Positions 32,775-61,423 of a stretch of 64,000 nt of DNA are shown here, one piece after another. A program made the translations under genes and the position numbers. The DNA lies in assembly GCA_964016885.1 (NCBI GenBank), contig OZ024740.1, forward strand, positions 419,802,001-419,866,000, read 5' to 3'. Under the pieces are notes generated by a model. That model searched no databases, was not told the origin of the DNA, and saw nothing but the letters and a program-made list of their open reading frames with translations. Source of the stretch: Eledone cirrhosa (taxonomy: Eukaryota). Each line of letters begins with the position of its first letter. Position 1 is the first letter of the stretch.

Positions 32775-33475
32775 ACCAGTCTAATACTGAGATCGATTTT
32801 TCCTCTATATCTCTTTCTTATTTTCTCTCTCTCACTTTCTATCCTTCTGTGAGAGAAATCGGCTCTGATCAGACTTGGAGATCCAAGAAACGATGTATGC
32901 CACTAGAGTGACCCCATGACCCAATACCATATTTATATATACAACAACAAAATATATCGATTAAATTTAACAAATGACTGAAACTACTAAAATGGTGGAC
33001 CATTTGAAAATAAAGAATTTGTTTTAATATAAATTCCTCTCTCTTGCTCACATACAAACATATCCTTCGCTTCCCATACTTGTTATAACGTGGGATTTCG
33101 GCGTTGCTGCTGCCACCATCACCGCTTTCTCTCACACACATACTCTTAGGTCTTGAATAATGCCCCCCCCCCCCCCCCCCCCACACACACACAAATTTCA
33201 TTTTAATCTATCTCAGGCGAAATTTTATTGTAAATGATTCATATCGATACAGCAGCTGGATAATCTAAGAATAATTTCATTTTACATTTAAAAAGATTAC
33301 AAGAAATCCTATATTTACAAACGTACACTATACAATCCCCCTCCCCCCATTATTTTGGACCCGGGAGTACACACCCATCCCAGTGTGGCAGACTTCCTCT
33401 GTTATTTAACACCACAAAAGCACAGATTTAAAGCTCCAGACGATAGTTGTATAATATTTGAAACTCAAAACTTAC

Positions 33476-33823
33476 CTTCGTAATAAAGCCAAAGTCCCTT
33501 CCGTTTCCCTTTACTTGTCATGGTCAGTGTCAAATTTATGTCATTCTTTAATGGATGAAAACTTTTTTCATTGACACTTCGATTACATATCGTTATGGTA
33601 TTAAATCCCGAATTCAAAAACAAATAATCTGTACAGTTTTTATTTCGTTCACCCTTTAGATCAAGATCGAGTATATATAACTGGATTTTTTTGTGAGGCT
33701 CCACTTTAATATTCAAACTACAACTGAACTGTCCTTGAACATTGTTAGGGTAACGATCACTTGAAATATAACCACTTTCGGCAGTGAGGAGTTTAGTGTC
33801 ACATATCTTTGTGATTTCAGATC
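33476..33823 (-). CDS. SUEL-CUB receptor, coding exon 3 (CUB domain)
   Basis: ttcaaag|..|gtaagt, 348 nt, phase 1-1; ICDTKLLTAESGYISSDRYPNN..CSLNIKV..IQLYILDLDL..CTDYL..TIC..KGLWLYYE shows the CUB pattern with 4 Cys. Confidence 0.9.
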
Positions 33824-34318
33824 CTTTGAAAAAGAAACAAGAAATGGTTAAAAATAATTAATAACCAGGATAATAATTTAGTTATTGTAAGACGTGTCAA
33901 TATAGCCGTCACAAAGATCAATTCTTTTAATGAACAATAATATAACTGATTAGAAATATATTGGAACTATATATTAATACAATATTTTTCAAGATTGTTA
34001 GAATGATGGAATAAATATATATATATATAGTAATAATAATAAATGTGAAAACTGAAATCCAAAGAGGGCTCGATAAGGATAAATATATAAGAACCCTAAA
34101 GCAAATATTTATTAAAATAACAGATTAAAGTTCAAGTAAAGAATCGGTTATTTTAATATTATATATAAACAACGATTTATTTCCCAAATGTGAAACATTT
34201 GCTAAATTACTTTCATTGTTTCAACCAAATAAATAAAAAATAAACCCCACCAGTTTTCACAAACCCAGGCAAGAGAGTATATAGTTTCCACCCTCTCGAT
34301 TATATAATATCCCTGTCT

Positions 34319-34590
34319 TATTTTAAGGTTCCATTAAAGTGAAAGTTAAATTTCTAGGCGAGAAATAAATTTTAAAAAAAAATAGACGTAAACACATACA
34401 GAAATTAGTTTCTCTATTTATACCGCTACTAGTAAAAAAATATATGTAAAATAGAAAAATAGTCACCCTTAAATGTAATGAAAATTATATTCACATTTAG
34501 CAAGAAATGTGTACATGAATAGAATGATTATTTATGTTTTGGTTTTCCATCTAGAAATTTCAACTTTCACTTTAATGGAACCCTAAAATA
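34319..34590. mobile_element. Small MITE-like inverted-repeat element in an intron
   Basis: ~40-bp arms tattttaaggttccattaaagtgaaagttaaatttctag / ctagaaatttcaactttcactttaatggaaccctaaaata. Confidence 0.65.
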
Positions 34591-34882
34591 GGACTATACC
34601 TCAAGGATTACGAATGCATCTCTGATGTAGAATAATCATGTCCCTTTATTTACTTCACACACACATACACACATATACATATACCAACATGTTAGGGGGT
34701 TTAGAGAATCACTCCGATTGTTTGGTCTAATTTCTTAAGGTGATCGCCATCTAGTAACAAGCAGTAATTCTGATAGCCATCGAATCATTGTATCAATATA
34801 AAAAGCCAACAAACGAAGCAGTTTGTTTGATATAATCAATATGAAATATTAAAGATGTTTTTTTGTTTTTTTTTTTACTTAC

Positions 34883-35164
34883 TCTTTACACATTTGTATT
34901 CCACTTGAAAATAATTGAAGTCACATTTCTTAATTCTGCGACCAGTTTCTGCCGTTGGTAAGTTAACCCGACAGAACTCCCGACCCATGCAAGGGTAGTT
35001 TTGTTCATCTTCTTGTATACAATCGTTCTCCTCGTAACTACAAGCTCCCCTGCTACTGTGGCCATAAAAACTCCTTAATATGCGAACCATTGAACCTCTT
35101 GGACAAAAAGCGTCTAAAAAATCCTTTTTTTCTTTAAAACAAGCACTTGCTTTCAATTTCAAAC
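34883..35164 (-). CDS. SUEL-CUB receptor, coding exon 2 (SUEL/rhamnose-binding-lectin-like domain)
   Basis: ttgcag|..|gtaagt, 282 nt, phase 1-1; 8 Cys: AC..CPRGSMVRILRSFYG..C..C..CMGREFCRV..C..YFQVEYKC. Confidence 0.9.
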
Positions 35165-35510
35165 CTGCAAAATAATAATATTTCCTTTTATTTTGAGTTA
35201 TTAATTTGAAAAAACAAACAAAGAAAGCATCGCTGATTTATTATTATTTTTTACTATGATTGAAATATTTTAATAAACAAGATAGCAACATCTTTGTGTG
35301 CAAATCTATTACATTTTGTTATGATTCTGATATCAAATTTTGTTGTGTTTGGGTTATTTTTTTTACTATGATCAAATAATATATTTTAATATTATAAACA
35401 AGATAGCAACATCTTTGTGTGTAAATTTACGAAATGTTGATGTGTGTGTTTAGGTTATTGTTTTTTGTAAAAAATAAAAATCTCTGTAATAAATAAACAA
35501 AACAACTCAC

Positions 35511-40064: not shown

Positions 40065-40262
40065 CCTCCTTGCCCACTTATTCCTGAGAGGGTTATGGGG
40101 GCAGAGTCCTGAAACACCCCTTCCAGCGGGTCCTGTCAGAAGCAACTGTCTCCAACTGATCCAGCTGGATCCCCAAGTGAGACCAGCCAAGCTCATGGAT
40201 ATTATCTAACCATATTGCTCAGGGTCTACCTCTGGGTCTCCTGTCAGTTGGTTTTGCCAGTA
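40065..40262 (-). mobile_element. 3' end of a divergent RTE-like LINE
   Basis: Encodes RRPRGRP..W-type C-terminus; second copy with (AAG)n tail at ~62420-62685. Confidence 0.6.
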
Positions 40263-41316
40263 GGACAGATAATATATTAAACACATTAGATGTAGGGTCT
40301 ACCTCTGGGTCTCCTGTCAGTTGGTTTTGCCAGTAGGACAGATAATATATTAAACACATTAGATGTAGGGTCTACCTCTGGGTCTCCTGTCAGTTGGTTT
40401 TGCCAGTAGGACAGATAATATATTAAACACATTAGATGTAGGGTCTACCTCTGGGTCTCCTGTCAGTTGGTTTTGCCAGTAGGACAGATAATATATTAAA
40501 CACATTAGATGTAGGGTCTACCCCTGGGTCTCCTGTCAGTTGGTTTTGCCAGTAGGACAGATAATATATTAAACACATTAGATGTAGGGTCTACCTCTGG
40601 GTCTCCTGTCAGTTGGTTTTGCCAGTAGGACAGATAATATATTAAACACATTAGATGTAGGGTCTACCCCTGGGTCTCCTGTCAGTTGGTTTTGCCAGTA
40701 GGACAGATAATATATTAAACACATTAGATGTAGGGTCTACCCCTGGGTCTCCTGTCAGTTGGTTTTGCCAGTAGGACAGATAATATATTAAACACATTAG
40801 ATGTAGGGTCTACCCCTGGGTCTCCTGTCAGTTGGTTTTGCCAGTAGGACAGATAATATATTAAACAATTTAGATGTAGGGCCTACCCCTGGGTCTCCTG
40901 TCAGTTGGTTTTGCCAGTAGGACAGATAATATATTAAACACATTAGATGTAGGGTCTACCCCTGGGTCTCCTGTCAGTTGGTTTTGCCAGTAGGACAGAT
41001 AATATATTAAACAATTTAGATGTAGGGCCTACCCCTGGGTCTCCTGTCAGTTGGTTTTGCCAGTAGGACAGATAATATATTAAACAATTTAGATGTAGGG
41101 CCTACCCCTGGGTCTCCTGTCAGTTGGTTTTGCCAGTAGGACAGATAATATATTAAACACATTAGATGTAGGGTCTACCTCTGGGTCTCCTGTCAGTTGG
41201 TTTTGCCAGTAGGACAGATAATATATTAAACACATTAGATGTAGGGCCTACCCCTGGGTCTCCTGTCAGTTGGTTTTGCCAGTAGGACAGATAATATATT
41301 AAACAATTTAGATGTT
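40221..41316. repeat. Minisatellite, 73-bp unit, ~15 copies
   Basis: agggtctacctctgggtctcctgtcagttggttttgccagtaggacagataatatattaaacacattagatgt. Confidence 0.95.
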
Positions 41317-41681
41317 ACCATTAAATCATAGTTTTCTTCAACAGTACAGAAATATCCAATGAAGAACTGCGGCAGTTAATGTTGGATCTTGTGAGATGGA
41401 AAGGTCTTTATTTATCATGCCACCCAACCCAAAGAACTGGAATGAATTTAGTAGTTTGTTGGTTAGGTTTAGTTTTCTTTAAGCAGGGTTAATACCAACA
41501 ACTGGTGTCGCTGATATATCCACAAGGGTTTTTATCATCAATGCAATCAGGACAAAGGTAGCTGAAGTAACAGGTGTAGCTGCTGCCGATACTTAATGGC
41601 TTTGTCAAGGTTTTGTGTGCCAGAGCACTGTTGCTTTATTAAAGGCCCCACCCTACTTTTATTGTATATATGTAATAAAAG

Positions 41682-42415: not shown

Positions 42416-42458
42416 ATAATGTATATAGTGTTTATATTATATATATATATATATATAT

Positions 42459-44560
42459 GAGAAAGACAGTCTCCCCCATATCGACCCAATAGAGGGACCA
42501 GCAGTGTTAGTCGAGGGGAGTATAATAAGTAAGGCAATCAAGGATATGAAGACGGGTAAGGCGGCTGGGCCTTCGGAAATAGTTGCTGAGATGCTGAAGG
42601 CATCTGGCACGGTGGGACACACCATGGTCACCCGCATAGTTAACCAAGTCGTACAGAATGGGGTTGTTCCGAAGGACTGGCATAGCAGCATCATCGTTAA
42701 CTGTTATAAGGGTAAAGGAGACGCCCTAGATAGGAGTAACTATAGAGGCATTAAATTAATCGACCAGGTCATGAAGGTCACGGAAAAAGTAATAGCGCAA
42801 CTAATCAGAGAGAGAATTGACCTAGATCAAATGCAGTTCGGGTTTGTGTCAGGCAAAAGTACCACAGATGCTCTTTTCATAGTACGACAACTACAGGAGA
42901 AGTACCTAGCTAAAGGTAAACCCCTCTACTTAGCTTTTGTCGACTTGGAGAAAGCCTTCGACAGAGTCCCCCGCTCCATTATCTGGTGGGCTCTTAGAAA
43001 ACTAGGCGTTGACGAATGGCTTGTGAGGGCTATACAAGCCATGTATAAAGAAACAGTCAGCAAGGTTAGAATTAACAACGAATATAGTGAAGAGTTTAGC
43101 GTAAAAGTTGGCGTCCATCAGGGCTCTATTCTCAGCCCCCTACTATTTATTATTGCCCTTCAGGCTATAACAGAGGAGTTCAAGACAGGCTGCCCATGGG
43201 AACTCCTATACGCAGACGACCTGACACTCATAGCGGAATCAATGGCCGAGCTAGAGAAGAAATTCCAAACATGGAAGCACGGCCTAGAGTCAAAAGGACT
43301 TAAAATTAACCTGGCTAAGACCAAAGTTCTAGTTTGTAGGAAAGAAAACAAGGCGGCGATCCCTTCTGGGAAATGGTCGTGCTCAGTGTGTAGGAAAGGC
43401 GTAGGTAGAAACTCCATTTTATGTCCTAAATGCAAAGTATGGGTGCATAAAAGATGTAGTGGGATCACAGGTAAGCTAACTAAGAACATAGATTTTACAT
43501 GTGGCCGGTGTTCTGGTGCAATAAGTAGCAGCAAGTGCCCACAAAATACTAGCTCTTTCAATTGCGCAGAGGGTTCTATAGAAATAGTGGACAGCTTCCG
43601 TTACCTGGGCGATAAAATCAGCAGTGGGGGAGGGTGCTCTGAAAGTACTGTAGCTAGAGTCAGAACTGGTTGGAAAAAGTTCAGAGAGCTTATACCACTA
43701 TTAGCTGCTAAAGGGTTCTCCCTAAAAATGAAAGGCAGGTTGTATGATGCCTGCATACGAACAGCAATGCTGCATGGCAGTGAGACCTGGGCATTGTGTG
43801 CAGAGGATATACGCAGACTAGAGAGGAACGAAGCTTGCATGCTCCGCTGGATATGTAACAGTAATATACGTGAACGGCAAAGCATAAACGAACTAAGGAA
43901 AAAACTAGAGATAAGAGGGATCAGATGTTGTTTACTCGAGAGAAGGCTACGTTGGTATGGACACGTGATGCGCATGAAAGTCGATAGCTGTATAACAAAG
44001 TGCAGGGCAATAAAGATAGACGGTAGTCACGGAATAGGCAGACCTAGAAAAACCTGGGACGAGCTGATAAACTCCGACATCACACACTTACACCTCTCCA
44101 AGACAATGTCACTGGACCGAGACCTTTGGCGGTACTCAGTAACAGAGAAGACCCGCCTTACCTAAATATATAGTAAAACCTACTCCAGCCAGTAGGCATC
44201 TCTAACAAAATACACCCCGTCCCACCACCACCACCCCCACCCCATCCACACCACCCCGTTCTATGTAAAGTTATGTTGGTGCTGCGCCATCCAGGCCGAA
44301 ACAAATGAGATCGTGTAGGTGTCACGACAAAAAAACACACAGTCCACGCTGTAATGTGGCCGTGTAGGCAACACGGTAAAAACCTCCCAGACCCACACTG
44401 TAAATGTGGTTGGTGTTAGGAAGGGCATCCAACTGTAGAAAACCTGCCAGACAGTCCTATGCGAGCAAGACAATCACTCTTGCCTCAAGTGGGACTACCC
44501 CCGTCCAAACCCATGCAAGCGTGGAACACGGACGTTAAACGTTGATGATGATGATGATGA
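42459..44560 (+). mobile_element. Young 5'-truncated RTE LINE (open RT, PHD-like finger, C-terminus, 3' UTR)
   Basis: Uninterrupted ORF to 44165 with YADD; only about 7 amino-acid differences from the copy at 58319-61345 apart from the extreme C-terminus; starts in (TA)n and ends in (GAT)n. Confidence 0.97.
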
Positions 44561-50973: not shown

Positions 50974-52509
50974 CATGCTAGCGTGGAAGAACGGACGTAA
51001 AACGGTGATGATGATATGCATGCAATGAACTAACTATAAGAATATACATATACAGCTACACACATATATATATATATATATATTTATATGCATTGAACTA
51101 ACTATAAGTATAATTATTTCTATAAGATACTGTGTGGTAGGTAAGTTAGAGGGACCAAAATACTGAATAGATACTTAAAAGGTAATTTGTTGTATCAAAT
51201 TACTGTAAATAATTCACAGCAGTTAATTCTACTTTTCCTGAGTTACTGATTCCACATCCACCTTCACCTAAATCCTCTTCATACACTTACCATTCCTCTT
51301 CATACACTTACCGTTCCTCTTCTTCTTCCCCTCTTATCATCCTTAATATATCTTTCTTTCTCACACACTTTTTTTTTTTTTCCCCCTAATCCTTCTTCCC
51401 TAGGATTTCATCTCTCTAGATCTTATACATATCCCATCATTAATCTGTGACATCCAGTTTCTGTGGCATTAAATTGATGAGAAATGGAAGTACCCTCTGG
51501 ATAAGATGCTTGTCTATCATCAGTAACTTTCTTTTTGCTAGATAAATTGAATGCAACACTGCAAAGCAATAACAATCATTGGTCAATTCAACTGCAGCTT
51601 GTACTTGTGGTAGTATGCAGTAACTACGAAGCTCTTCAGAGCCAGATTCAGTCCTTTTGAGGCCATATATGTTTAACCTTTTAGCATTTAAACCAGCCAT
51701 ATCAGGCAATTCTCTCACCTCTTTCTGTTCAAACCAGCCGTAATTGGCCACTCATACCAATGTTAAGGTATCGTTCTCAAAATAAATAACATCAAAATCT
51801 CATAGCTTTGATATTATGTGAAATAATTATGTGAGATAAATCCTTTACCATGAAAATACAACAGTAAATATAAAGTAATGTAAATCTAAAGGGTTAAAAG
51901 ATTATGGCGTATGTGTCCATATATAAAGTATGACAAATACTATTAATTTGCATAAAATTGTGCCCCCTTCCCTTGATGCCTTTAGAATCTGCTTAATTTG
52001 CATAATAGTTAATAACTTCCCAGTTATTTATTTCTGTCTTCTAATTGGAAGGATAAGATATATTAACCCTTTAGCATTTAAACCGGTCATATCCGGCCAG
52101 AACTCTCTCACCTCTTTCTGTTCAAACTGGCTCAACTGGCCATTTATACTGATGTTAAGGTATTGTTCTCAAAAGAAATGATATCAAAACCTCATAGATG
52201 CAATATTATGTGAGATAAAGTGTTTACAGTGAAAATACAATAGTATATATAGAGTAATGTAAATGCTTAAGGGTTAATATATTATCTCTTATTTCAAAGA
52301 ATTCTCCTCCCAATGATGGAATTGTAATTTTTTCAATATTGATTATTCCAATGTCTTGGAATGGTCAATGTTGTTTTTTTTTAATCCCAGAAACCATGGT
52401 CAGGGAACTCTGAGTAAAACCAACTTATTTTAGTCAGTCTAGCTTATATTCCCCCCCCCCCAATAGAGGGGGTTAAGTTTTAATTATATATATATATAAT
52501 TATATATAT

Positions 52510-52815
52510 ATATCACATAAGAAATGGAGAATCAGTGGTGCAACGAATAAAATTTATTAGACATATTATTTGGAAACAGTGCTTCGAAGAATCGAGACGT
52601 ATCTGAGGACCTTGCGATTTCAGAGTCAGGTTCGAGCATTGCATCGATCATGCCTCGAGCTGGTCGCCAGAGAAACGATTGTAATATGTCTAATAAATTT
52701 TATTCGTCGCACCACTGATTCTCCTTTTATTATGTGATATCATACTCTGCTCTGTAAAAACATTAAGTGATCAAACGGCCTACCGCTTACGGATGCTTTA
52801 AGCATCCCACACCAA
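52510..52815 (+). mobile_element. Hairpin (Penelope-like / retrozyme-like) element in (TA)n
   Basis: ~58-bp inverted arms (52510-52568 / 52682-52740) enclosing a hammerhead motif; (TA)n on both sides. Confidence 0.7.
52595..52691 (+). ncRNA. Candidate type I hammerhead ribozyme with extended stem II
   Basis: Stem I AGACGUAU/AUAUGUCU (8 bp, one G:U), CUGAGGA at 52603-52609, ~60-nt nested stem II, GAAAC-GAUU-GUA, predicted cleavage after 52683. Confidence 0.7.
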
Positions 52816-52850
52816 TTATATATATATATATATATATATATATTTTTTTT

Positions 52851-53165
52851 CATTTTACGTCCCCTTTTTCCTTGCTTGCAAGGGTGGGACAGGAACTGAT
52901 TCTGGCTTGATTTCTACAGCTGGATGCCCTTCCTAACACCAACCTCATTTACAGTGAGTGCTGGGTGCTTTTTTGCCGTGGCGCCTCCACGACCACTTTT
53001 CAGTGGAATGATAGGGACCCCAGTCCCTATCATCTCATTTCTACAGCTGAGTAAACTAGAGCAATGTGAAATAAAGTGTCTTGCTCAAGGACACAACTCG
53101 ATCCGAGAATCGAACTCACAACCCTTTGATTGCAAGTCCAATGCTTTAACCACTAAGCCATATAT
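52851..53165 (-). mobile_element. CORE-type tRNA SINE with RTE tail
   Basis: Reverse complement of the 1718-2060 family. Confidence 0.85.
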
Positions 53166-53207: not shown

Positions 53208-53667
53208 TGTGTGTGTATGTGTTTTTATATTTCTGAGTTGAAAATCCCAACTGATAAGAATCAACAGAAATATTATAGCTAGGTACAGTTAAATCTATCT
53301 CACCTTTCTTAATGTTTACCTCAGCAATACATTGATTAAATATCACGAGCTGTTGAACAGTTTGGGATTTCTTTCTTTCTTCTATTGAATACTTCTGGTC
53401 ATCAATATGAACTCAATACACATCTGTCGCAGGAGGTCAGGAAATAATTTATATTTTTGATATTTTATTTGTTACCTGAAATAATCTAAAATCTCAAATC
53501 CTGGGCCTTCTCACTCCTGTTGCAGGACCCTGTTTGACCTCCACCACTTCCTATCTATGGTCACATTGGGCCATATTGGGCCAAGGTATCAGGCCAGATC
53601 ATCACCCCATCTGGCCTTTGGCTGCCCTCTGGTTCTTCTCTACTGCCTTGGTGTCCACTCTGTCATT

Positions 53668-54475
53668 CTAATAGTCCACCTGTTGTCTCTGAGACGAGAG
53701 ACATGGTCAGCCTAGATGTCCACTCCACCACACTAATAGTCCACCTGTTGTCTCTGAGACGAGAGACACGGTCAGCCTAGATGTCCACTCCACCACACTA
53801 ATAGTCCACCTGTTGTCTCTGAGACGAGAGACATGGTCAGCCTAGATGTCCACTCCACCACACTAATAGTCCACCTGTTGTCTCTGAGACGAGAGACATG
53901 GTCAGCCTAGATGTCCACTCCACCACACTAATAGTCCACCTGTTGTCTCTGAGACGAGAGACATGGTCAGCCTAGATGTCCACTCCACCACACTAATAGT
54001 CCACCTGTTGTCTCTGAGACGAGAGACATGGTCAGCCTAGATGTCCACTCCACCACACTAATAGTCCACCTGTTGTCTCTGAGACGAGAGACATGGTCAG
54101 CCTAGATGTCCACTCCACCACACTAATAGTCCACCTGTTGTTTCTGAGACGAGAGACATGGTCAGCCTAGATGTCCACTCTGTCACACTAATAGTCCACC
54201 TGTTGTCTCTGAGACGAGAGACATGGTCAGCCTAGATGTCCACTCCACCACACTAATAGTCCACCTGTTGTTTCTGAGACGAGAGGTGTGGCCACCCCAG
54301 GTGTCCACTCTGTCACTCCAATAGTCCACCTGTTATCTCTGACATGAGAGACATGACCAGTCCAGATGTCTAATAGTCCATCTGTTATCTCTGAAACAAG
54401 AGACCTGGTCAACCCAAGTGTCCACCCCAATAGTCCACCTGGTGTCTCTGAAACGAGAGACGTGTCCAGCCCACC
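53668..54475. repeat. Minisatellite, 65-bp unit, ~10 copies plus decayed units, inside an RTE-like LINE relic (~53540-54480, -)
   Basis: taatagtccacctgttgtctctgagacgagagacatggtcagcctagatgtccactccaccacac; minus strand reads GHVS..RDNRWT..VTEW.P. Confidence 0.9.
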
Positions 54476-58318: not shown

Positions 58319-61300
58319 TTAGAGATGCCTACTGGCAAGGCGGGTCTTCTCTGTTACTGAGTACCGCCAAAGGTCTCGGTCCAGTGACATTGTCTTGGAG
58401 AGGTGTAAGTGTGTGAGGTCGGAGTTTATCAGCTCATCCCATGTTTTTCTAGGTCTGCCTATTCCGTGGCTACCGTCTATCTTTATTGCCCTGCACTTTG
58501 TTATACAGCTATCGACTTTCATGCGCATCACGTGTCCATACCAACGCAGCCTTCTCTCGAGTAAACAACATCTGATCCCTCTTATCTCTAATTTTTTCCT
58601 TAGTTCGTTTATGCTTTGCCGTTCACGTATATTACTGTTACACATCCAGCGGAGCATGCAAGCTTCGTTCCTCTCTAGTCTGCGTATATCCTCTGCACAC
58701 AATGCCCAGGTCTCACTACCATGCAACATTGCTGTTCGTATGCAGGCATCGTACAACCTGCCTTTCATTTTTAGGGAGAACCCCTTAGCAGCTAATAGTG
58801 GTATAAGCTCTCTGAACTTTTTCCAACCAGTTCTGACTCTAGCTACAGTACTTTCAGAGCACCCTCCCCCACTGCTGATTTTATCGCCCAGGTAACGGAA
58901 GCTGTCCACTATTTCTATAGAACCCTCTGCGCAATTGAAAGAGCTAGTATTTTGTGGGCACTTGCTGCTACTTATTGCACCAGAACACCGGCCACATGTA
59001 AAATCTATGTTCTTAGTTAGCTTACCTGTGATCCCACTACATCTTTTATGCACCCATACTTTGCATTTAGGACATAAAATGGAGTTTCTACCTACGCCTT
59101 TCCTACACACCGAGCACGACCATTTCCCAGAAGGGACCGCCGCCTTGTTTTCTTTCCTACAAACTAGAACTTTGGTCTTAGCCAGGTTAATTTTAAGTCC
59201 TTTTGACTCTAGGCCGTGCTTCCATGTTTGGAATTTCTTCTCTAGCTCGGCCATTGATTCCGCTATGAGTGTCAGGTCGTCTGCGTATAGGAGTTCCCAT
59301 GGGCAGCCTGTCTTGAACTCCTCTGTTATAGCCTGAAGGGCAATAATAAATAGTAGGGGGCTGAGAACAGAGCCCTGATGGACGCCAACTTTTACGCTAA
59401 ACTCTTCACTATATTCGTTGTTAATTCTAACCTTGCTGACTGTTTCTTTATACATGGCTTGTATAGCCCTCACAAGCCATTCGTCAACGCCTAGTTTTCT
59501 AAGAGCCCACCAGATAATGGAGCGGGGGACTCTGTCGAAGGCTTTCTCCAGGTCGACAAAAGCTAAGTAGAGGGGTCTACCTTTAGCTAGGTACTTCTCC
59601 TGTAGTTGTCGTACTATGAAAAGGGCGTCTGTGGTGCTTTTGCCTGACACAAACCCGAACTGCATTTCATCTAGGTCAATTCTCTCTCTGATTATTTGCG
59701 CTATTACTTTTTCCGTGACCTTCATGACCTGGTCGATTAATTTAATGCCTCTATAGTTACTCCTATCTAGGGCGTCTCCTTTACCCTTATAACAGTTAAC
59801 GATGATGCTGCTATGCCAGTCCTTCGGAACAACCCCATTCTGTACGACTTGGTTAACTATGCGGGTGACCATGGTGTGTCCCACCGTGCCAGATGCCTTC
59901 AGCATCTCAGCAACTATTTCCGAAGGCCCAGCCGCCTTACCCGTCTTCATATCCTTGATTGCCTTACTTATTATACTCCCCTCGACTAACACTGCTGGTC
60001 CCTCTATCGGGTCGATATGGGGGAGACTGTCTTTCTCCCATTTATTCTCCTCATTTAGTAGCCTTTCATAGTGACACTTCCAAGCTACCTTCTTATCAGT
60101 GTCGGTGATGGCAAGTATGCCATCATCGTTAAGTACACACTTCTCCCCGACAATATCACGGTTTTCCTTGACGCATTGCCTGGCAATCCTGAACACCTCA
60201 CGTTTTTGGTCATCGCGTTGTAGAACATGCTTGAACTTTCTTTCCTCAGCTTCCCTTCTTGCTAAGTACACTTCTCTCCTAGCTTCCCTCATGGCCACTT
60301 GATAGTCTACTCTACTTCCCCCATCCCGCCATACTTTCCAAGCCTGCTTTTTGGCCTTAATTGACCCCTCCACCCTACTGTTCCACCACCAAGTTACTCT
60401 CCTCCTGCCTACAGGCCTGCTCCAGCCACAGACTTCGTCTGTCGCCAACAGCAGGTTTGCTTTCAGAAATTCCCACTGTCCCTCTATATTGTCCGATTCT
60501 AGATGCTCTTCCTTACTGTCGAAAGCATCAAGTAATATGCTTTGAAATTTATTTCTGGCTGTGGGGTCCTTTAGTTTCCATATTTTCCTCCTGAGGATAG
60601 TCCTCTTCTGCTGTCGAGTACGTCTCGTCCTGACTATGAGGTCGCTAATTATCAGTCTATGTTGGGAGGTGCATTCTTCATGGGGGAGGGATTTAGTGTT
60701 TACAACAGACACTCTGTCACGTCTTCTGGTAAGGATATAATCTACCTGGCTTGTGTGTTCCCCTGATCTATAGGTGATCAGGTGATTGTCACGTTTTTTG
60801 AAGTTAGTGTTACAGATAGTTAGGTTATTTGCATCACAGAATTCCAGGATTCTGGAGCCTCCCTCATTTCTAGTACCAAACACATAGCCTCCATGGATTT
60901 CGTCGTAGCCGTCACAATGTTGTCCAACGTGACCATTTAGGTCGCCTGCAATAATTATATAGTCACTGTCAGATATTTGGGAGGTAGTTAGCAACAGTGT
61001 CTCATAGAATCTGTCTTTTATAGTGCCGGGCAGTCCGGATTGGGGTGCGTACGCAGATATTACTGTCACCGTAGTTTTATTGAGGACAAGTCTTATTTTA
61101 ATTATTCTGTCGTTCACTCTATTTACGTCTATTATCTTATCTGCCCACTTTTCTGCTACCATGATTCCTACTCCACCCAGCCCATCGTCGTTTCCCATCC
61201 AGAAAAGCTTATAACATCGTTTTTTACCCTCAATGAATCTAGCAGACCCACCCCTCCACCTGGTCTCTTGAATACAACAAACATCGACCTCCTTACGTTC

Positions 61301-61423
61301 AAGCATTTCTACAACCTCGTTAGCGCGACCCTTTAGGGTGCCCACATTTATGGTACCAACTCTGAAGTTTTGGGTTGCGTTTGGAGGGTGGGGTGGTGGG
61401 GGGCGGGGGGAGATAGGGTTACG
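58319..61423 (-). CDS. RTE polyprotein: AP endonuclease, reverse transcriptase, C4HC3 PHD-like finger
   Basis: Frame open from 61423; EN motifs GTINVGTL, CIQETRW, SAYAPQ, GDLNGH, VDYIL, SQHRL; RT motifs NYRGI, QFGF, DLEKAFD, QGSVLSP, YADD, FRYLG. Confidence 0.95.
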   Translation of the reverse strand, partial: RNPISPRPPPPHPPNATQNFRVGTINVGTLKGRANEVVEMLERKEVDVCCIQETRWRGGSARFIEGKKRCYKLFWMGNDDGLGGVGIMVAEKWADKIIDVNRVNDRIIKIRLVLNKTTVTVISAYAPQSGLPGTIKDRFYETLLLTTSQISDSDYIIIAGDLNGHVGQHCDGYDEIHGGYVFGTRNEGGSRILEFCDANNLTICNTNFKKRDNHLITYRSGEHTSQVDYILTRRRDRVSVVNTKSLPHEECTSQHRLIISDLIVRTRRTRQQKRTILRRKIWKLKDPTARNKFQSILLDAFDSKEEHLESDNIEGQWEFLKANLLLATDEVCGWSRPVGRRRVTWWWNSRVEGSIKAKKQAWKVWRDGGSRVDYQVAMREARREVYLARREAEERKFKHVLQRDDQKREVFRIARQCVKENRDIVGEKCVLNDDGILAITDTDKKVAWKCHYERLLNEENKWEKDSLPHIDPIEGPAVLVEGSIISKAIKDMKTGKAAGPSEIVAEMLKASGTVGHTMVTRIVNQVVQNGVVPKDWHSSIIVNCYKGKGDALDRSNYRGIKLIDQVMKVTEKVIAQIIRERIDLDEMQFGFVSGKSTTDALFIVRQLQEKYLAKGRPLYLAFVDLEKAFDRVPRSIIWWALRKLGVDEWLVRAIQAMYKETVSKVRINNEYSEEFSVKVGVHQGSVLSPLLFIIALQAITEEFKTGCPWELLYADDLTLIAESMAELEKKFQTWKHGLESKGLKINLAKTKVLVCRKENKAAVPSGKWSCSVCRKGVGRNSILCPKCKVWVHKRCSGITGKLTKNIDFTCGRCSGAISSSKCPQNTSSFNCAEGSIEIVDSFRYLGDKISSGGGCSESTVARVRTGWKKFRELIPLLAAKGFSLKMKGRLYDACIRTAMLHGSETWALCAEDIRRLERNEACMLRWMCNSNIRERQSINELRKKLEIRGIRCCLLERRLRWYGHVMRMKVDSCITKCRAIKIDGSHGIGRPRKTWDELINSDLTHLHLSKTMSLDRDLWRYSVTEKTRLASRHL

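What the first reader, a model, noticed from the sequence alone, without database searches (positions are those of the whole stretch)
52510..52815. Hammerhead ribozyme with long stem II inside a (TA)n-embedded hairpin element, next to its own antisense arm
Seen: AGACGUAU-CUGAGGA-[nested stem gcgau/gucgc, cag/cug, ucgag/cucga, gcau/augc]-GAAAC-GAUU-GUA-AUAUGUCU. This has all core nucleotides, an 8-bp stem I and a minimal stem III with a near-palindromic loop. The left outer arm (52510-52568) is complementary to the 3' strand of stem I and beyond, so the 58-bp hairpin and the ribozyme fold exclude each other. Known: minimal type I hammerheads with palindromic loop III occur in Penelope-like elements and retrozymes and cleave as dimers. 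Inference: a small non-autonomous ribozyme-bearing retroelement. It is in sense orientation to the presumed ASCC3 pre-mRNA, and the antisense arm may stop it cutting the host intron. The base of stem II has a C-A mismatch, so this copy may be inactive.
Basis: partly seen in the sequence, partly recalled or inferred. Interest (0 to 1): 0.75.

Follow-up and report, generated by a model that had tools for sequence, protein, structure and literature searches.

The report
Truncated Hydra-Penelope end, long-armed hammerhead
This is the cut-short, fold-back end of an ordinary protein-coding Penelope-type jumping gene with over a thousand copies in the genome; it carries a predicted self-cutting hammerhead RNA with an unusually long arm that is likely inert at this site, and its sister copies break off at a likely transcription start rather than at the predicted cut.

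Summary
The hammerhead motif (52595-52691) and the 59-bp inverted arm are real. The stretch is the 5'-truncated 3' repeat of a protein-coding, (TA)n-targeting Hydra-clade Penelope-like element of 4.8-4.9 kb, with over 1,000 copies. It is not a separate non-autonomous element: short and long copies share haplotypes. The left arm is the usual inverted, tail-less second copy. Sisters end at two fixed sites 76 nt apart, and 38 of 65 hammerheads are not covered by an arm. The C-A mismatch is lineage-wide. 5' ends pile up 116 nt upstream of the cut (35 of 53), at this copy's start, and not at the cut (3 of 103). That site is likely a transcription start, but 0 of 6 full-length 5' repeats stop there. 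Cleavage and expression are untested. The scan found similar Hydra ends, long arms and promoter-like hotspots before on other DNA.

The parts
52484..52509 (.). (TA)n target, left side
   Evidence: Sequence; 110 of 115 sister termini at the two fixed sites run into (TA)n
52510..52568 (-). Inverted, tail-less, 5'-truncated second copy of the element's 3' end (reverse complement of 52682-52740)
   Evidence: 59 nt, 95% complementary; outer end at the fixed terminus used by 66 of 140 sister segments
52568..52575 (+). 5' end of the sense unit = family 5'-end hotspot, 116 nt upstream of the cut; predicted transcription start
   Evidence: 35 of 53 segments that reach it end in 11 nt; 12 of 22 in a subfamily with different upstream sequence
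52595..52602 (+). Stem I 5' strand; also a DPE-like motif at +28 to +35 from 52568
   Evidence: 7 of 8 letters match the RGACGTGY element of PMC2377424; the +28 position is recalled
52603..52609 (+). Hammerhead core CUGANGA
   Evidence: core intact in 105 of 156 copies; U4C in one lineage of the older subfamily, 12 of 18 readable cores
52610..52671 (+). 62-nt stem II insert (family fold up to 22 bp, 8-nt loop); apical helix broken at two pairs in this copy
   Evidence: RNAalifold and pair counts on 29 copies; private changes at 52636 and 52650
52672..52683 (+). GAAA, self-complementary stem III/loop III (52675-52682) and H17; predicted cut after 52683
   Evidence: both stem III pairs unchanged in 29 of 29
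52684..52691 (+). Stem I 3' strand; taken by the left arm in this copy
52692..52740 (+). Repeat sequence up to the first fixed 3' terminus (52740), a predicted reverse-transcription start
   Evidence: 66 of 140 sister segments end here; function inferred from PMC11167929
52741..52816 (+). 76-nt tail up to the second fixed terminus (52816); 5' UTR sequence in full-length copies, ATG 43 nt further on; tail hairpin degraded in this copy
   Evidence: 56 of 140 segments end at 52815-52816; tail-to-ORF joins; hairpin -10.7 kcal/mol in L029 vs -0.4 here
52817..52843 (.). (TA)n target, right side
   Evidence: Sequence

Best explanation
The stretch is a doubly truncated, fold-back insertion of the hammerhead-bearing terminal repeat of a protein-coding Hydra-clade Penelope-like retrotransposon into (TA)n, likely made by two reverse-transcription events primed at the element's two fixed ends, and it is likely inert in the ASCC3 intron. 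Shown: the parent element (5' repeat, ORF with RT and C-terminal GIY-YIG, about 1.9 kb of 3' UTR, 3' repeat), the two fixed 3' termini at 52740 and 52816, the tail/no-tail inverted pairing, and a 5'-end hotspot at 52568 with none at the cut. Inferred: the endonuclease nicks both strands of (TA)n, each end primes cDNA inside the RNA at one of the two termini, and the two cDNAs are joined head to head. The long cDNA here ran from 52816 to 52568, likely off the 5' end of an uncleaved transcript (about 55% for this step). The short one stopped after 59 nt. The hammerhead would cut after 52683 only as a dimer or with protein help; in this single copy it has no partner in cis and loses its stem I strand to the left arm.
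For: ORF link: 18 of 20 loci picked by the ORF end carry the unit 1.6-2.0 kb downstream on the same strand (8 of 10 among those picked by the ORF end alone). 9 of 13 loci picked by the ORF start hold ORF end and 3' repeat. Hydra motifs read from translations against PMC8557442 section 11 and supplement: DKT, RWR for RWK, CxCx5C linker, CxxC and CxH around the endonuclease E and N. Termini: 66 and 56 of 140 segments at the two sites; 42 of 45 inverted pairs are tail plus no-tail. 5' ends: 35 of 53 at -108..-118, against 62 of 115 over the 138 nt before, 7 of 18 over the 182 nt after and 3 of 103 within 5 nt of the cut. The hotspot recurs in subfamily C (12 of 22), and upstream folds are no more stable than shuffles (z 0.87, 0.04, 0.07). 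PMC11167929 shows two internal RT starts bounding the tail, extension of both strands, and unprocessed RNA as the main template in vitro.
Against: No RNA evidence and no cleavage assay. None of the 6 ORF-joined 5' repeats that reach the hotspot stops in it (nearest about -123; p = 0.0015, or 0.02 if that one counts), so simple run-off from one transcription start does not explain full-length copies. A second family has a cluster at -118/-119 (9 of 27), but there it is confounded by (TA)n microhomology and lacks the DPE-like motif; a third family shows no cluster. A smaller cluster at an AT-rich spot (+18..+21, 7 ends) shows that AT microhomology also attracts ends. The stem II insert of this copy folds no better than shuffles (z -1.02; a family-type copy -2.52). 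No intact ORF was seen among the copies translated. Pfam gave no significant hit on four ORF pieces; the Atlas gave RT-bearing clusters at 0.89-0.93 with low family shares.
Confidence: 0.85

Rival explanations
1. The element is as described, but the 5'-end hotspot at 52568 is a polymerase stall or a microhomology-favoured joint, not a transcript start.
For: A loose stem closes next to the site in some long copies. By eye, 7 of the 44 junctions listed abut (TA)n and about 6 are short fold-back palindromes. 0 of 6 full-length 5' repeats stop there. An AT-rich spot at +18..+21 also gathers 7 ends.
Against: The upstream fold is not more stable than shuffles. The hotspot keeps its position in subfamily C, whose upstream sequence differs. 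A stall should also stop cDNAs that enter a 5' repeat of a full-length copy. A DPE-like motif sits at +28.
Confidence: 0.35
2. A separate small non-autonomous element (retrozyme- or SINE-like) of about 250-300 nt that amplifies from its own short master copies.
For: Most copies are short: over 1,000 3' ends against 14 tail-to-ORF joins. A solo repeat would keep an internal promoter (PMC2377424). Another family in this genome does form 520-570 bp tandem units.
Against: Short and long copies share haplotypes in like proportion. Arm lengths vary freely. By eye, none of 86 sampled insertions has two complete same-strand hammerheads within the stretches fetched.
Confidence: 0.1
3. The left arm was kept by selection because it silences a ribozyme that would otherwise cut ASCC3 pre-mRNA.
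For: The arm abolishes stem I in silico, and the copy is in sense within ASCC3. PMC bioRxiv 10.64898/2026.07.22.740005 (abstract and part 1) reports depletion of tandem retrozymes from introns in vertebrates.
Against: The arm arises with the insertion. 30 of 65 sampled hammerheads have no arm and 8 have one too short. A lone hammerhead with a 2-bp stem III is expected to be inactive without a partner (PMC4209133). Both arms have drifted by 2 of 59 letters.
Confidence: 0.07
4. The left arm is a cDNA that ran off a ribozyme-cleaved 3' fragment, so it records cleavage in vivo.
For: The arm's inner end lies within 1-2 nt of the predicted cut.
Against: Only 3 of 103 sister segments at risk end within 5 nt of the cut, no more than background.
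Confidence: 0.08

Closest known systems
Hydra clade of Penelope-like elements, incl. Hydra-1_Obim (Craig et al. 2021, PMC8557442; outline, passages, section 11 and three supplement look-ups seen)
   Same: C-terminal GIY-YIG, DKT, CxCx5C linker, CxxC and CxH motifs, (TA)n insertion, type I hammerhead near the 3' end with a short palindromic stem III, inverted 5'-truncated copy and a one-sided tail.
   Different: Unit 4.8-4.9 kb with about 1.9 kb of 3' UTR (Hydra generally under 3 kb); stem II insert 62 nt (Hydra rows of File S2: 3-7 bp plus a short loop); C-A or U-A at the base of stem II; tail 76 nt (30-40 described for PLEs); hammerhead sequence unlike that of Hydra-1_Obim, so another family.
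Poseidon PAc of Anolis carolinensis (Frangieh et al. 2024, PMC11167929; parts 1-2 of 4 read)
   Same: Hammerhead at the repeat-ORF junction, two internal RT starts that bound the tail, AT-rich targets, catalysis dispensable for insertion in vitro.
   Different: Other clade; there the ORF starts inside stem II, here the ATG lies 175 nt after the cut; no 5'-end hotspot was described in the parts read.
Minimal and palindromic-stem III hammerheads of metazoan PLEs (Cervera and de la Pena 2014, PMC4209133; parts 1-2 of 4 read)
   Same: Type I fold, palindromic 15.2-16.2 region, predicted dimer, thousands of solo motifs from truncated copies, some in close opposite-strand pairs.
   Different: Helix II there is 6-8 bp with a conserved G10.1-C11.1 pair; here it is up to 22 bp and starts with C-A or U-A.
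Metazoan non-LTR retrozymes (PMC7229834, passages; bioRxiv 10.64898/2026.07.22.740005, part 1 of 5)
   Same: Short non-coding stretch with a type I hammerhead, related to PLE repeats.
   Different: Retrozymes are head-to-tail tandem units; this family is dispersed, head-to-head, and continuous with an ORF.

Membership tests
Type I hammerhead ribozyme | Core CUGANGA, GAAA, NUH with three stems | tested here: met
   intact core in 105 of 156 copies
Type I hammerhead ribozyme | Stem II supported by covariation | tested here: inconclusive
   92.6% of cells paired; one compensatory change U-A to G-C at 52612/52669 (11 of 29 rows, probably one event); two one-sided compatible changes; slid controls 27-42%. 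Rows were hand-picked: 14 of subfamily A, 15 of C.
Type I hammerhead ribozyme | Base pair at 10.1-11.1 (usually G-C) | tested here: not met
   C-A in this copy; U-A in 69 and C-A in 59 of 136 subfamily A copies. U-U mismatches occur in Hydra rows of File S2 and in active variants (PMC3088659).
Type I hammerhead ribozyme | Self-cleavage after H17 | not testable with these tools
   Needs an in vitro assay
Hydra-clade PLE | Single ORF, RT followed by C-terminal GIY-YIG | tested here: met
   Order read from broken copies; no intact ORF seen
Hydra-clade PLE | DKT, RWK-like motif, CxCx5C linker, CxxC and CxH flanking E and N | tested here: met
   Motifs read by eye; RWR in place of RWK
Hydra-clade PLE | (TA)n insertion | tested here: met
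   110 of 115 termini
Hydra-clade PLE | Hammerhead in the terminal repeat; inverted truncated copy; one-sided tail | tested here: met
Hydra-clade PLE | Generally short (<3 kb) | tested here: not met
   4.8-4.9 kb between like points of the two repeats; a typical trait in the paper, not a diagnostic one
Hydra-clade PLE | Placement in the RT phylogeny | not tested
   No tree built; published proteins were seen only as supplement text
Non-LTR retrozyme | Head-to-tail tandem units each with a hammerhead | tested here: not met
   0 of 86 insertions by eye
Non-LTR retrozyme | No coding parent in cis; own amplification lineage | tested here: not met
Naiad PLE | N-terminal endonuclease, no canonical hammerhead | tested here: not met
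   Endonuclease is C-terminal and the hammerhead has canonical strand order

The most novel reading that the evidence does not exclude
Hydra-type Penelope elements use two templates. A capped, uncleaved RNA that starts 116 nt upstream of the hammerhead cut gives short run-off copies, like retroviral strong-stop DNA; these are most of the genomic copies, this one included. A template with no end there, a cut-and-ligated circle of about 4.85 kb or a read-through multimer, gives full-length copies with 5' repeats of free length. The internal promoter's downstream element and stem I of the ribozyme are the same eight bases.
Probability: 0.3. Interest if true: 0.65.

Novelty: new variant of a known kind. 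Interest (0 to 1): 0.36.

Why it matters
The locus itself is a dead fragment of a known class. Its value lies in the family. What hammerheads do in Penelope-like elements is open (PMC8557442, PMC11167929), and the end map of sister copies gives a genomic read-out: no excess of ends at the cut, a strong excess at a promoter-like site, and full-length copies that ignore that site. This names exact positions for 5' RACE and circle RT-PCR. The family also shows that descriptors with short stem II limits, and Rfam in this test, miss such hammerheads. An unbiased sample suggests on the order of 300,000 type I motifs in this genome, against 126,247 reported for axolotl (PMC7229834) and 235 Rfam hits for giant squid (PMC6962438).

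Tried and rejected
Rfam scan: no hammerhead hit. Sequencing runs: no RNA holder listed. Contigs of four runs were laid; they show the family in organisms B and C and three opposite-strand joints at 52568-52569, but contigs cannot show RNA starts or levels. A Penelope ORF upstream on the opposite strand in L047 was rejected as the parent: it has its own hammerhead and no similarity to this RT (E 0.64). Apparent starts of full-length 5' repeats at -110 were an artefact of subfamily divergence, so that support for a transcription start was withdrawn. The first all-against-all end mapping for two other families was spoiled by (TA)n and redone with anchored alignments. One fold ran on an empty string and was redone. 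Within-subfamily substitution rates barely separate core (3.0%), paired (3.3%) and outside (3.9%) non-CpG sites, as expected for neutrally decaying copies; they were not used as evidence. Cofolding two 97-nt copies gains about 9-10 kcal/mol over two monomers, but partly through non-hammerhead pairs; not used. A-to-G editing marks in the arms: none among the 4 arm differences from L029. Lunse et al. (PMC5785218) is not held; seen only as a reference title, and it may already describe long-stem variants. bioRxiv supplements are closed and could bear on the retrozyme comparison.

Full report
Observation. The window holds one type I hammerhead motif on either strand, at 52595-52691. Shuffles gave none with stem I >= 8 and loop III <= 8 in 100 tries. 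Rfam missed it. The left arm 52510-52568 is 95% complementary to 52682-52740 over 59 nt. The whole stretch folds as one long hairpin (z -12.6). Stem I has mean pair probability 0.0 with the arm and 0.54 without. The host gene is ASCC3 on the + strand, with exons on both sides, so the motif is in sense within an intron.

Family. A DNA search of the 3.0-Gb genome gave 3,039 first-look candidates, 40 of them scored. Exact 26-mers gave 1,015 matches 3' of the cut and 930 across the 3' half of the core, with 0 in reversed controls. Longer copies run upstream through about 1.9 kb of non-coding sequence into the end of an ORF. Of 20 loci picked by that ORF end, 18 carry the hammerhead unit downstream on the same strand; ten of the 20 were chosen because a second search also hit them, and 8 of the other 10 carry it. 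Of 13 loci picked by the ORF start, 9 contain ORF end and 3' repeat. The ATG lies 43 nt after the tail end, and the unit is 4.8-4.9 kb. Only 14 tail-to-ORF joins were found genome-wide with at most one mismatch. All copies translated have stops or frameshifts.

Clade. The translations show DKT, RWR, an RT core with DD, a CxCx5C linker, a C-terminal GIY-YIG and CxxC/CxH motifs. These match the Hydra clade as defined in PMC8557442 section 11 and the Hydra-1_Obim rows of its supplement; the comparison was by eye and no tree was built. The hammerhead of Hydra-1_Obim differs, so this is another family. That the host is an octopus is my inference from its repeats (recalled) and from earlier scan notes; no call names it.

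The left arm. In 86 insertions picked by a 26-mer inside the arm region (from the first 100 of 1,015 matches, all on contig C1), 140 segments reach the 3' region. 66 end at the 52740-equivalent and 56 at the 52815/52816-equivalent, and 110 of 115 exact termini run into (TA)n. Of 45 inverted pairs, 42 join a tailed and a tail-less segment; 42 loci have no adjacent pair. This is the inverted truncated copy and one-sided tail described for PLEs, and it fits the two internal RT starts and two-strand extension shown in vitro for PAc. The tail is 76 nt here. Of 65 hammerhead-bearing segments, 27 are covered by an arm, 8 have an arm too short and 30 have none. The arm is therefore a by-product, though it does block this copy in silico.

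The ribozyme. The core is intact in 105 of 156 copies. Position 52610 is T in 69 and C in 59 of 136 subfamily A copies, and C in 18 of 20 subfamily B copies, so the C-A mismatch was inherited from masters. On 29 hand-picked copies of subfamilies A and C, RNAalifold predicts a 19-pair stem II with an apical helix 52633-52637/52646-52650; it did not predict stems I and III. My 22-pair version is 92.6% paired, with one compensatory change at 52612/52669. This copy breaks two apical pairs and the tail hairpin. Of 18 majority differences between subfamilies A and B, 16 are unpaired or outside the motif and none is in the core. One lineage of subfamily C carries U4C (12 of 18 readable cores), a change that lowers activity in vitro (PMC3088659). 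Full catalysis thus seems not to be needed for amplification, in line with PMC11167929. Across other families in the fetched loci, 33 of 47 motif types have a fully self-complementary stem III segment, which the descriptor did not require (chance 2-39% by loop length; types are not independent). This supports dimer action as proposed in PMC4209133.

5' ends. Ends do not gather at the cut (3 of 103 at risk within 5 nt). They gather 108-118 nt upstream (35 of 53), with background rates on both sides. The window's sense unit starts there. The cluster recurs in subfamily C (12 of 22) despite different upstream sequence, the upstream fold is unremarkable, and a DPE-like motif lies at +28 as the 5' strand of stem I (about 2% by chance for a 5-letter consensus recalled from memory). 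Against a simple start-site run-off: none of the 6 ORF-joined 5' repeats that reach the site stops in it. Of two other families, one has a confounded cluster and one has none. Short and long copies share haplotypes, which argues against a separate short master lineage.

Mechanism. Shown: anatomy, termini, pairing of arms, end distribution. Inferred: two-strand nicking of (TA)n, two internally primed cDNAs joined head to head, run-off at a transcript start for the short copies (about 55%), a different template for full-length copies, and dimer- or protein-dependent cleavage after 52683. Untested: expression, cleavage, promoter activity.

Literature and novelty. Hammerheads in Hydra repeats, inverted copies and tails are published. 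Searches for octopus or cephalopod with hammerhead and Penelope, for long or extended stem II in retrotransposons, and for pLTR, truncation, transcription start and strong-stop found no description of a 62-nt stem II in Hydra elements or of such a hotspot. The library lacks many subscription papers, and Lunse et al. could not be read. Long stem II inserts have precedent in the spike-moss PLE-X rows of File S2. Earlier notes of this scan reached similar readings on other DNA; none matched this sequence. They are leads, not support. Papers seen: PMC8557442 (outline, passages, section 11, three supplement look-ups), PMC11167929 and PMC4209133 (parts 1-2 of 4), bioRxiv 10.64898/2026.07.22.740005 (part 1 of 5), and passages of PMC6765202, PMC7229834, PMC2377424, PMC3088659, PMC13725137 and PMC6962438.

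Verdict. A real but probably inert fragment of a new Hydra-clade family with a long-armed hammerhead: new variant of a known kind, interest 0.36.

Noticed in passing
L069-L107 (39 stretches of 10 kb at round coordinates): 40 type I hammerhead descriptor hits in 390,000 nt, against 0-2 (mean 0.3) in 20 shuffles and 0 in a reversed control. This extrapolates to about 2.2-4.2 x 10^5 motifs genome-wide (Poisson; hits are clumped, so the range is wider). Stem II inserts run from 13 to 115 nt.
   Followed up: partly
L224-L253: Another hammerhead family with 8,808 exact 23-mer matches, often as same-strand repeats 520-570 bp apart and as inverted pairs; retrozyme-like.
   Followed up: partly
L254-L283: A third family (2,659 exact 34-mer matches) whose 5' ends cluster 118-119 nt upstream of the cut in 9 of 27 copies, at an ATAT that can pair with the (TA)n target.
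   Followed up: partly
L327-L356: Older subfamily C (625 pattern matches) splits into a lineage with U4C in the core and one with an intact core and one extra base in stem II.
   Followed up: partly
L357, L360, L361: Three ORF-joined 5' repeats align to about 417-434 nt upstream of the cut (L361 may reach 544); possibly a second fixed 5' end, or only the limit of the references.
   Followed up: no
window 51673-51912 and 52058-52292: Two related copies about 390 bp apart; the second has 23-nt terminal inverted repeats with TTAA at the ends, like a piggyBac-type MITE (recalled).
   Followed up: no
window 53103-53160 (-): tRNA-like hit above Rfam's gathering score (31.6 bits); likely the head of a SINE at about 52890-53165.
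   Followed up: no
window 33468-35237 (-): Two open frames that look like CUB- and lectin-domain exons (names recalled): a possible nested gene antisense within the ASCC3 intron.
   Followed up: no
window 58322-61423 (-): Uninterrupted 1,034-codon frame of an endonuclease-RT LINE, with a near-identical partial copy at 42429-44162 (+): a young element.
   Followed up: no
G000:C1:419243031-420125594: Sec63-domain exon matches of ASCC3 span more than 880 kb.
   Followed up: no
window 40222-41375 and 53645-54232: Tandem arrays with 73-bp and 65-bp units.
   Followed up: no
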